Shown here: in pieces, positions 16,934 to 16,994 of the stretch
How positions within the stretch are numbered: position 1 is the first letter of the stretch
How the letters are laid out: the number at the start of each line of letters is the position of its first letter
DNA from: a virus
Taxonomy: Duplodnaviria; Heunggongvirae; Uroviricota; Caudoviricetes
Length of the DNA stretch: 64,000 bases
Direction: 5' to 3' (one strand)
Virus record (IMG/VR): IMGVR_UViG_3300042456_000759
The notes under the pieces: generated by a model
The model's input: the letters and a program-made list of their open reading frames with translations, nothing else
Told to the model about the DNA's origin: nothing
The model's database searches: none
Translations under genes and position numbers: made by a program

Positions 16934-16994
16934 TATACTGTTTCGACCTTTTGGGTCATCATCAGGCAGGATACATTCCCACGACAGTTTATAG
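16934..16994 (-). ncRNA. hammerhead ribozyme-like motif, type III topology (copy B)
   Basis: Minus-strand RNA: UAUAAACUGUC^GUGGGA-AUGUA-UCCUGC-CUGAUGA-U-GACC-CAAAA-GGUC-GAAAC-AGUAUA. Same core and same U insertion as copy A. Helix I and distal helix III differ by compensatory changes, and the helix II loop differs. Confidence 0.5.

What the first reader, a model, noticed from the sequence alone, without database searches (positions are those of the whole stretch)
16934..16994. Second hammerhead-like motif (copy B) with compensatory substitutions relative to copy A
RNA: UAUAAACUGUC^[GUGGGA-AUGUA-UCCUGC]CUGAUGA-U-[GACC-CAAAA-GGUC]GAAAC-AGUAUA. The core, the inserted U, the GACC/GGUC helix II stem and the ACAG...CUGUC junction are identical to copy A. 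Helix I is a completely different but still self-complementary sequence: GUGGGA/UCCUGC against CAUAAA/UUUAUG. The helix II loop also differs (CAAAA against UAAUUGAG). The distal helix III co-varies (ACAGU/ACUGU against ACAGAAA/UUUCUGU). This is the covariation expected of a functional structured RNA, not of a chance duplication.
Basis: partly seen in the sequence, partly recalled or inferred. Interest (0 to 1): 0.8.

Follow-up and report, generated by a model that had tools for sequence, protein, structure and literature searches.

The report
Phage hammerhead ribozyme bounding a noncoding RNA
The motif is a genuine type III hammerhead self-cleaving ribozyme in a distant crAss-like phage; with a second copy 467 bases downstream it brackets a conserved, structured noncoding RNA that some near-identical strains lack, with the breakpoint inside the ribozyme core.

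Summary
Window 16990..16935 (minus strand) has every conserved hammerhead core base, three helices and a GUC cleavage site (cut after C16983). It folds as a type III hammerhead alone and in a 206-nt context.

A covariance model trained without this phage finds only this site and copy A (16527..16468) in the 64 kb. Rfam's Hammerhead_3 aligns end to end but scores 31.8 bits, below its 48.5-bit cut-off. IMG/VR holds more than 118 contigs with the same core, and 40 distinct type III relatives show strong helix covariation.

Hammerheads in phages have been known since 2011, so the ribozyme is a new member of a known kind. The context is less ordinary:
- The two ribozymes flank about 400 nt with no ORF instead of a gene.
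- That spacer is 73-87% identical in three other phage contigs whose neighbouring genes are mostly unrelated.
- It folds into a strand-specific structure with 18 compensatory pair changes and matches no Rfam family.
- Strains 98-100% identical to the window either carry the unit or lack exactly 467 nt, with the junction in the shared GGTCGAAACAG.

Cleavage itself, the RNA's function and any circular form are untested.

The parts
16934..16994 (-). Hammerhead ribozyme copy B, type III. The covariance-model hit is 16990..16935. Predicted cleavage is 3' of C16983, leaving G16982 as the 5'-OH end of the downstream product.
   Evidence: Sequence; fold; Rfam RF00008 31.8 bits; models R1 55.2 bits and independent R2 51.7 bits.
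16966..16982 (-). Helix I hairpin of copy B: GUGGGA-AUGUA-UCCUGC, 6 bp including 2 G.U pairs.
   Evidence: Helix I covaries at all 6 pairs across 40 relatives.
16958..16965 (-). Core strand CUGAUGA (C3-A9) plus the inserted U at 16958.
   Evidence: The insertion is a known variant (PMC3705267, PMC4209133).
16938..16957 (-). Helix II hairpin GACC-CAAAA-GGUC, then GAA (G12-A14) and ACAG of helix III. GGTCGAAACAG (16948..16938) is the upstream copy of the 11-nt direct repeat at the strain-level indel junction.
16468..16527 (-). Hammerhead ribozyme copy A, type III. Predicted cleavage is 3' of C16520. It ends 28 nt before the ATG of ORF 16439..16188. Its GGTCGAAACAG (16481..16471) is the downstream copy of the direct repeat.
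16520..16982 (-). The 463-nt RNA predicted to be released by the two cleavages. It would have a 5'-OH and a 2',3'-cyclic phosphate. The body of copy B sits at its 5' end and a 22-bp helix plus UUUCUGUC at its 3' end.
   Evidence: Coordinates derived. MFE -120.3 kcal/mol, z = -5.4. Release is inferred, not shown.
16528..16934 (-). Conserved noncoding spacer (candidate structured RNA). Its parts are a 5' domain (16933..16858), a variable A/U-rich linker, a central hairpin with 7x7 internal loop plus a G.U-rich hairpin (16777..16706), a hairpin (16691..16669), and a 3' domain (16668..16528) closed by a 22-bp helix (16668..16647 with 16550..16528).
   Evidence: 73-87% nucleotide identity to L056, L077 and L030, with homology ending at the ribozymes. 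RNAalifold gives 99 pairs, 18 with compensatory changes. Consensus energy is -67 kcal/mol on this strand against -48 on the other. No conserved ORF. No Rfam match.
16471..16937 (-). The 467-nt segment absent from near-identical strains L248, L249 and L250. Its exact ends are ambiguous within the 11-nt repeat.
17019..17048 (-). Terminator-like 12-bp hairpin followed by a U-tract. It spans the stop codon of the upstream ORF and lies 28 nt before copy B.
17033..17434 (-). Upstream ORF of 133 aa with no family match. Its stop codon is 42 nt before copy B.
16188..16439 (-). Downstream ORF of 83 aa with no family match. Its leader would begin with the body of copy A after cleavage.

Best explanation
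Copy B is a functional type III hammerhead ribozyme in the minus-strand array of small ORFs and tRNA genes of a divergent crAss-like phage.

Proposed mechanism:
- Once transcribed, it folds into the three-way junction and cuts its own backbone after C16983.
- Copy A does the same after C16520.
- Together the two cuts divide the transcript into three pieces:
  - the mRNA of the 133-aa ORF, which ends shortly after a stable hairpin;
  - a 463-nt structured noncoding RNA that begins with the compact body of ribozyme B (5'-OH) and ends in a 22-bp helix plus a 2',3'-cyclic phosphate;
  - the mRNA of the 83-aa ORF, whose leader begins with the body of ribozyme A, 28 nt before the start codon.

So copy B defines the 5' end of a ribozyme-trimmed noncoding RNA and insulates it from the upstream message.

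At the DNA level, the two ribozyme cores also act as short direct repeats. The whole unit is lost (or gained) between them in natural strains.

Shown here: the motif, its fold, its covariation, the conservation and structure of the cargo, and the strain polymorphism. Inferred: cleavage in vivo, release and stability of the RNA, and its function.
For: Motif and fold:
- The core is complete and the fold is the minimum-free-energy structure.
- An independent model finds exactly two hits in 64 kb.
- Rfam Hammerhead_3 aligns end to end.

Family:
- Of 94 unique viral hits chosen only on core plus helix II sequence, 77 have complete stems I and III, against 1.1 with shuffled flanks.
- 40 distinct type III relatives show strong covariation.
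- The upstream ribozymes in L077 and L030 keep the fold through three double changes in helix II.

Context:
- All neighbours are on the same strand.
- In about 22 of 37 related type III ribozymes, a same-strand ORF starts within 36 nt of the ribozyme's 3' end (most of them 15-36 nt). Copy A fits this pattern.
- A stable hairpin directly upstream is recurrent: mean -10.2 against -6.2 kcal/mol, p = 7e-7.

Cargo:
- It is conserved exactly from ribozyme to ribozyme.
- Its structure is strand-specific with compensatory changes.
- It is noncoding.
- The predicted released RNA has z = -5.4.

Polymorphism.

Literature: hammerheads clustered in prophages cleave in vitro, and transcript processing is the proposed role (PMC3088659, PMC6765202).
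Against: - No cleavage assay or RNA data exist for this locus.
- The Rfam score is below the gathering threshold.
- L056 and L119 keep the cargo but have lost the upstream ribozyme, so copy B's position is not indispensable for the RNA.
- L248-L250 do without the cargo altogether.
- The terminator-like hairpin 28 nt upstream could stop many transcripts before they reach copy B.
- The cargo alignment has only four distinct sequences from two lineages, and the structure was predicted from those same sequences.
Confidence: 0.7

Rival explanations
1. Retrozyme- or viroid-like element. The two same-polarity hammerheads release a unit-length RNA that is circularised, either by the ribozyme's reverse reaction or by a host RtcB-type ligase. 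The unit behaves as a semi-autonomous or mobile RNA cassette inside a DNA phage.
For: - Two same-strand type III hammerheads flank a noncoding, highly structured cargo.
- Homology to other phages ends exactly at the ribozymes, while the neighbouring genes are mostly unrelated.
- Presence and absence vary among near-identical strains.
- A chimeric helix III (5' strand of A with 3' strand of B) can form: 4 bp in the window and 7 bp in L077 (read).
- Circular products were raised as a possibility for phage hammerheads (PMC3088659).
Against: - There is one unit per genome; the model finds only two ribozymes in 64 kb.
- The repeats are limited to the ribozyme cores, with no long terminal repeats.
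- The DNA indel is 467 nt but the RNA between the cleavage sites is 463 nt. The empty allele keeps B's body, not the product of an RNA-level join.
- The unit sits at a roughly syntenic place in L056 and L077.
- No reverse transcriptase was seen nearby, though not every ORF was scanned.
- Perreault et al. looked for circular products at other loci and found none (PMC3088659).
Confidence: 0.12
2. Pure mRNA processing. The ribozymes only separate and stabilise the flanking mRNAs, and the 400 nt between them is a long regulatory leader or trailer (promoter, terminator, UTR) instead of an RNA with a function of its own.
For: - The usual context of this ribozyme family is 15-36 nt upstream of a start codon.
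- L053 and L075 show the classic arrangement of ribozymes flanking single ORFs.
- The middle of the spacer is variable and A/U-rich. It follows a hairpin plus a U-rich stretch and could hold a terminator and a promoter.
- Strains without the spacer exist.
Against: - The spacer is far better conserved than the surrounding proteins: 87% nucleotide identity against 53-55% amino-acid identity or no detectable homology.
- Compensatory changes and many G.U pairs point to selection on RNA structure over about 330 nt.
- The 22-bp closing helix abuts ribozyme A, as expected for a defined RNA 3' end.
Confidence: 0.13
3. Chance motif or inactive relic. The sequence resembles a hammerhead but does not cleave.
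For: - The Rfam score is below the gathering threshold.
- There is one inserted base in the core.
- A decayed copy at the same position in L056 shows that such sites can die.
Against: - Zero matches are expected by chance.
- The independent model gives E about 1e-12.
- All essential bases are intact and the fold is stable.
- The family covaries.
- In the CChMVd hammerhead, which carries an extra A at this position, changing that A to U raised the trans-cleavage rate 3-4-fold (PMC3705267).
Confidence: 0.05

Closest known systems
Type III hammerhead ribozyme (Rfam RF00008 Hammerhead_3; clan CL00010)
   Same: Same catalytic core, same three-helix junction with helix III open, a GUC cleavage triplet, G10.1-C11.1, and closed helices I and II. 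It aligns over the whole Rfam model.
   Different: - It scores 31.8 bits against a 48.5-bit gathering score, so standard annotation misses it.
- It carries an inserted U between A9 and G10.1. This is known from CChMVd (as an A) and from Penelope-like element hammerheads (PMC3705267, PMC4209133).
- It belongs to a phage subgroup with loop 1 (A)UGUR(U) and loop 2 C(A/U)AAA(G), shared with L022, L109, L017, L053, L075 and L082.
Clustered hammerheads in prophages and phages (Perreault et al. 2011, PMC3088659)
   Same: Several same-strand hammerheads lie close together in a phage operon. Processing of long transcripts is the proposed role, and cleavage of such clusters was shown in vitro at other loci.
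   Different: - There the ribozymes flank protein genes; here they flank a conserved noncoding structured RNA.
- The host genome here is a distant crAss-like phage, for which I found no hammerhead report.
- Strain-level loss or gain with breakpoints in the ribozyme core is not described there.
Retrozymes and viroid-like circular RNAs with hammerheads (PMC4918200, PMC7761336)
   Same: Two same-polarity type III hammerheads bracket a few hundred nucleotides of structured noncoding RNA. Double cleavage gives ends suitable for ligation into a circle.
   Different: There are no long terminal repeats, no multiple genomic copies and no evidence of reverse transcription or circles. The element sits in a DNA phage, not a eukaryotic genome, and the DNA indel length (467) differs from the RNA unit length (463).
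Theta (HDV-like) ribozymes next to tRNAs in gut phages (PMC10879173)
   Same: A small self-cleaving ribozyme is used by a phage to trim a noncoding RNA out of a longer transcript. The genome also carries a suppressor-type tRNA.
   Different: It is a different ribozyme class. It cuts at the 5' side of the cargo, not at a tRNA 3' end. The cargo is not a tRNA, and the suppressor tRNA gene lies 2.4 kb away.
RiboJ-type synthetic insulators (satellite-RNA hammerhead plus hairpin); comparison from my own knowledge
   Same: A hammerhead in a 5' leader removes upstream RNA context and leaves a structured 5'-OH end. The recurrent stable hairpin next to the phage ribozymes gives protected ends on both products.
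   Different: This is a natural element, and in the phage copies the hairpin lies upstream of the ribozyme. The function is inferred only.

Membership tests
Hammerhead ribozyme, type III | Conserved core bases C3 U4 G5 A6 N7 G8 A9, G12 A13 A14, A15.1-U16.1, H17 (criteria in PMC3088659) | tested here: met
   CUGAUGA at 16965..16959, GAA at 16944..16942, A16941 paired with U16984, C16983. One extra U at 16958 between A9 and G10.1.
Hammerhead ribozyme, type III | Three helices meeting at the core, with standard pairs directly next to it (1.1-2.1, 10.1-11.1, 15.1-16.1) | tested here: met
   G16982-C16966, G16957-C16945, A16941-U16984. The MFE and centroid folds are the junction.
Hammerhead ribozyme, type III | Topology: helices I and II closed by loops, helix III open | tested here: met
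Hammerhead ribozyme, type III | Helices supported by covariation in relatives | tested here: met
   Alignment A6: 40 distinct sequences, 91.8% paired against 36-46% when slid, 16 of 18 pairs changed on both sides. The alignment was fitted to the model, so it leans towards the structure. A less circular test gives 77 of 94 against 1.1.
Hammerhead ribozyme, type III | Score at or above Rfam's gathering threshold for RF00008 (48.5 bits) | tested here: not met
   31.8 bits, E = 9e-6 on 79 nt. Absent from the gathering scans of the window and of six related loci.
Hammerhead ribozyme, type III | Site-specific self-cleavage giving 5'-OH and 2',3'-cyclic phosphate | not testable with these tools
   Needs in vitro transcription or RNA end mapping.
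Hammerhead ribozyme, type III | Loop 1-loop 2 tertiary contact that gives fast cleavage at low Mg2+ | tested here: inconclusive
   Two loop-pair subtypes recur together across contigs, which hints at matched loops. No contact was modelled.
Clustered phage/prophage hammerheads (Perreault 2011) | Two or more same-strand hammerheads close together in a phage transcription unit | tested here: met
   Copies B and A are 467 nt apart on the minus strand. Crass-like identity comes from TerL, portal and a virion protein.
Clustered phage/prophage hammerheads (Perreault 2011) | The ribozymes flank a protein gene or a short block of genes | tested here: not met
   There is no ORF of 40 aa or more, no conserved frame and no codon periodicity between them. 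L053 and L075 do show the classic form.
Retrozyme / viroid-like circular RNA | Same-polarity hammerheads flanking a noncoding structured region | tested here: met
Retrozyme / viroid-like circular RNA | Long direct repeats carrying the ribozymes, and many copies per genome | tested here: not met
   Similarity between the copies is confined to the ribozyme core. There are only two ribozymes and one cargo in 64 kb.
Retrozyme / viroid-like circular RNA | Covalently closed circular RNA product | not testable with these tools
   Needs RNase R treatment, 2D gels or junction-spanning reads.
Any Rfam 15 family, for the cargo RNA | Match to a curated covariance model | tested here: not met
   Nothing at gathering score. 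Only chance-level hits at E up to 10.

The most novel reading that the evidence does not exclude
The ribozyme-to-ribozyme unit is a self-excising, possibly circular, noncoding RNA cassette. It moves between crAss-like phage genomes using the conserved hammerhead cores as its boundaries. This would be a prokaryotic-virus counterpart of retrozymes or viroid-like RNAs, with the hammerheads serving both RNA excision and DNA-level cassette exchange.
Probability: 0.12. Interest if true: 0.85.

Novelty: new variant of a known kind. Interest (0 to 1): 0.55.

Why it matters
What hammerhead ribozymes do in bacteria and phages has been open since they were found there in 2011 (PMC3088659, PMC6765202). 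This locus makes a concrete case available.

- Two intact ribozymes have a defined, conserved, structured noncoding cargo.
- Natural near-isogenic strains with and without the unit exist.
- One relative has lost only the upstream ribozyme.

Together these amount to a ready-made set of genotypes. They allow tests of whether the ribozymes trim a functional RNA, whether that RNA is linear or circular, and what it does for the phage.

Two further points follow:
- A whole subgroup of phage type III hammerheads falls below Rfam's cut-off, so routine annotation misses it.
- Short conserved ribozyme cores can act as recombination breakpoints that add or remove cassettes in mosaic phage genomes.

Tried and rejected
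- Rfam at gathering score on the window and on six related loci found only tRNAs.
- Rfam at E up to 10 on the spacer gave chance-level hits only. Copy A was not reported by RF00008 in that run.
- GenBank phages (blastn) gave only tRNA hits for window 15000-19000 and nothing useful for copy A.
- More cargo homologues were sought with several DNA patterns:
  - Three IMG/VR contigs and one JGI contig identical to L056 were all that turned up.
  - A 15-mer pattern was too unspecific and wasted a scan.
  - The genome scan gave one chance hit inside a coding region of a Deltaproteobacteria MAG.
- nhmmer with a cargo profile over all 260 loci found no further members.
- A coding reading of the spacer was rejected: no start codons in the open frames, no shared frame, and flat substitution phase.
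- A DNA-level palindrome or origin reading was rejected. The consensus fold is 19 kcal/mol better on the minus strand and uses about 44 G.U cells.
- An antisense-target or repeat search of the released RNA against the rest of the window gave only A/T-rich chance matches, so there is also no DGR-like second copy.
- TerL relatives (L240-L243) and contigs with homologues of the 133-aa ORF (L251-L261) have no cargo. L251-L253 have a hammerhead upstream of the homologue, not downstream of it.
- RNA-level 'splicing' by the two ribozymes as the origin of the empty allele was rejected, because it would leave A's body, not B's.
- Integration of a 463-nt circle was rejected, because the indel is 467 nt.

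Full report
**The observation**

On the minus strand the parts are:
- helix III 5' strand ACUGU (16988..16984);
- cleavage-site C at 16983;
- helix I GUGGGA/UCCUGC with loop AUGUA (16982..16966);
- CUGAUGA (16965..16959) and one extra U (16958);
- helix II GACC/GGUC with loop CAAAA (16957..16945);
- GAA (16944..16942);
- helix III 3' strand ACAGU (16941..16937).

Every base that the published search criteria require is present: C3 U4 G5 A6 N7 G8 A9 G12 A13 A14 A15.1-U16.1 H17, plus pairs adjacent to the core (PMC3088659, methods). The core pattern occurs twice in the window, against 0.00 expected from shuffles. The second occurrence is copy A at 16527..16468.

Both copies fold into the three-way junction as their minimum-free-energy and centroid structures. 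Copy B keeps that fold inside a 206-nt context, where it sits between independent hairpins.

**Is it more than chance, and is it a hammerhead?**

- Rfam's Hammerhead_3 model aligns over its full length at 31.8 bits (E = 9e-6 on a 79-nt stretch). That is below the curated 48.5-bit cut-off, so the whole-window gathering scan lists only five tRNAs.
- Of 94 unique hits chosen only on that core-plus-helix-II string, 77 have complete adjacent stems I and III (22 type III, 55 type I). With shuffled flanks the figure is 1.1.
- A covariance model built from type III members, excluding the window and its near relatives, finds exactly two sites in the 64 kb: 70.7 bits for copy A and 51.7 bits for copy B. 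Part of that score is by construction, because the training set was fetched with a pattern taken from these copies. The helix I and helix III contributions are independent.
- An alignment of 40 distinct type III relatives is 91.8% paired, against 36-46% when partners are slid. All six helix I pairs change on both sides.
- The inserted base between A9 and G10.1 is a known variant. CChMVd carries an A there, and changing it to U raised trans-cleavage 3-4-fold (PMC3705267). Penelope-like element hammerheads conserve a base at that position (PMC4209133).

I conclude that copy B is a bona fide type III hammerhead. Catalysis itself is inferred.

**The genome**

PHROG hits identify a terminase, a portal and a 1532-aa virion protein. 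TerL is 27% identical to Crassvirales phages. The window therefore comes from a divergent crAss-like phage. No GenBank phage matches the region at the DNA level. I found no paper linking hammerheads with crAss-like phages.

**The context**

All genes from about 18900 down to position 1 are on the minus strand, including five tRNA genes. In transcription order the locus reads:
1. the 133-aa ORF (17434..17033);
2. a terminator-like hairpin (17048..17019);
3. copy B;
4. about 400 nt without any ORF;
5. copy A;
6. 28 nt later, the 83-aa ORF (16439..16188).

Among related type III ribozymes, the usual position is 15-36 nt upstream of a same-strand start codon, seen in about 22 of 37 cases. A stable hairpin directly upstream is also recurrent (mean -10.2 against -6.2 kcal/mol, p = 7e-7). 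Copy A fits the start-codon rule. Copy B does not, because what follows it is noncoding.

L053 and L075 show the classic arrangement described in 2011, with ribozymes flanking single ORFs (PMC3088659).

**The cargo**

The stretch from ribozyme to ribozyme is the best-conserved DNA in the neighbourhood:
- 86.6% identity to L056 (a 109-kb contig; L119 is the same sequence);
- 75.5% to L077 (a 108-kb contig);
- 73.5% to L030.

Homology stops abruptly outside the two ribozymes. By contrast, the two flanking ORFs have no tblastn match in those loci. Only two small ORFs further downstream match L056, at 53-55% amino-acid identity.

The spacer is noncoding. Its open frames lack start codons, no frame is shared between the homologues, and substitutions fall 16/14/16 by phase.

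RNAalifold predicts 99 pairs, 18 of them with compensatory double changes. These include a 22-bp helix (16668..16647 with 16550..16528) that closes a three-hairpin domain and ends exactly where copy A begins. The consensus energy is -67 kcal/mol on the minus strand and -48 on the plus strand. The structure uses about 44 G.U cells, so it is an RNA feature of the transcribed strand and not a DNA palindrome.

The RNA between the two predicted cleavage sites (16982..16520, 463 nt) folds with z = -5.4. The equivalents are 452 nt in L077 and 450 nt in L030. No Rfam family matches.

Caveat: there are only four distinct sequences from two lineages, and the structure was derived from them.

**The upstream ribozyme in relatives**

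L077 and L030 have an intact type III hammerhead at the same place (66.8 and 65 bits). Helix II there is GGGA/UCCC or GGGG/CCCC, which is three double changes from GACC/GGUC. Helix I is GUAGGAC/GUUCUAC.

L056 and L119 retain only a decayed remnant (ATGGGATAAAGCATAGAAAA) and give no model hit. So the ribozyme at this site is usually kept through compensatory change, but it can be lost.

Where the 133-aa ORF has 66%-identical homologues (L251-L253), a hammerhead sits 20 nt upstream of that gene and none lies downstream. Ribozyme positions therefore turn over relative to orthologous genes.

**Strain polymorphism**

Looking up the exact flanking proteins in public assemblies gave contigs 98-100% identical to the window.
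- L244/L247, L245 and L246 carry the unit unchanged.
- L248 (GCA_043533635.1), L249 (a 130-kb Logan contig) and L250 have a 126-nt intergenic region instead of 593 nt.

The empty-allele sequence is copy B's 5' strand, helix I, core and helix II. It runs through GGTCGAAACAG straight into the sequence that follows copy A. The 467-nt difference is thus bounded by an 11-nt direct repeat inside the two ribozyme cores.

The resulting hybrid ribozyme has only a 4-bp helix III. It scores 48.3 bits against 51.7, and the hammerhead fold is no longer its minimum-free-energy structure. Both ribozymes of the filled allele have matched helix III strands.

I read the empty allele as a deletion between the two cores. 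Insertion at a resident ribozyme cannot be excluded, because more distant relatives with an orthologous flanking gene lack the unit. Two other routes are ruled out:
- An RNA-level join after double cleavage would leave A's body, not B's.
- A 463-nt circle does not fit a 467-nt indel.

**Mechanism proposed**

Copy B cuts after C16983 and copy A after C16520. The cuts release a 463-nt structured RNA with a 5'-OH and a 2',3'-cyclic phosphate. They also separate it from the upstream mRNA and from the downstream mRNA, whose leader starts with the body of copy A.

Copy B therefore makes the 5' end of a ribozyme-trimmed noncoding RNA. The function of that RNA is unknown. It is dispensable in some strains, which fits an accessory role.

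Rival readings are a circular, retrozyme-like mobile RNA, plain mRNA processing with a long regulatory spacer, and an inactive relic. They are weighed in the Rival explanations section of this report.

**Comparison and novelty**

Hammerheads of all three types are known in phages, and clusters flanking genes were described in 2011 (PMC3088659, PMC7761336). The ribozyme is therefore a new member of a known kind.

The new elements are a conserved noncoding structured cargo, the occurrence in a crAss-like lineage, the fact that this phage subgroup escapes Rfam's threshold, and natural filled and empty alleles with breakpoints in the ribozyme core. Taken together I rate this a new variant of a known kind, of moderate interest.

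Noticed in passing
window 14061-14190 (minus strand), directly upstream of the tRNA at 13983-14060; L077:10250-10392: A noncoding stretch of about 130 nt is conserved with L077. It has a predicted outer stem enclosing four hairpins: 29 pairs, 6 with compensatory double changes between the two sequences. The outline is cloverleaf-like, but neither ARAGORN nor Rfam calls it. With only two sequences the evidence is weak.
   Followed up: partly
window 13983-14060 (minus strand): ARAGORN calls a tRNA with anticodon UUA, which would read the UAA stop codon. 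Rfam's tRNA score is only 41.9 bits, with mismatches in the anticodon arm. The large plus-strand genes read well in the standard code, so its role is unclear.
   Followed up: no
window 14169-14182 (minus strand); L030:10846, L056:7831, L077:10371 and 10108, L096:10441, L248-L250 (L248/L249:5532, L250:2553), and the strain copies L119, L244, L246 and L247: The 14-mer TACAACTGAGTGCA is usually followed by GAGGG and preceded about 20-30 nt upstream by TGTAG. It recurs in intergenic DNA of these divergent phages, and one copy lies at the end of a strain-specific 1-kb insertion. It could be a promoter-like or boundary motif.
   Followed up: partly
window 14978-14987 and 16998-17007 (minus strand); L025 upstream of its hammerhead: A small hairpin motif (A/G)GTTGGTAAAC(C/T), often followed by TAAGCTT, occurs just upstream of copy B. 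It also occurs at the junction of a 393-nt strain indel.
   Followed up: partly
window 14567-14959, and between window 15367 and 15377: Two further presence/absence differences exist among strains that are 98-100% identical. L244 and L247 lack 393 nt that include the 89-aa ORF 14907..14638. L248 and L250 carry an extra 967 nt or so with two ORFs (97 and 88 aa). This small-ORF region on the minus strand is highly mosaic.
   Followed up: partly
about 45 nt upstream of type III hammerheads in L065, L095, L012, L030, L075, L053, L066, L068, L001 and others: A stable, often G+C-rich hairpin ends 0-3 nt before helix III in many phage type III hammerheads (mean -10.2 against -6.2 kcal/mol for random windows, p = 7e-7). 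After cleavage the upstream RNA would end in a protective 3' hairpin.
   Followed up: yes
window 5315-5404 (minus strand); L077:6570-6676 and 7632-7763: Rfam reports tRNA matches with long insertions (33 nt or more) that ARAGORN does not call. They could be class II tRNAs, intron-containing tRNAs or tRNA-like elements.
   Followed up: no
L251:3921-3980 (also L252, L253): Where the 133-aa ORF has a 66%-identical homologue, a type III hammerhead with copy-A-like loops lies 20 nt upstream of that gene. There is none downstream, so the ribozyme's position relative to this gene differs from the window.
   Followed up: yes
L075:6174-6227: This hammerhead-like element has a variant core (CUGAAUGA) and a very short helix II. 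It lies 9 nt upstream of a small ORF and is paired with a canonical copy 230 nt downstream. Both are preceded by the same GGGAGAG..CUCUCCC hairpin.
   Followed up: no
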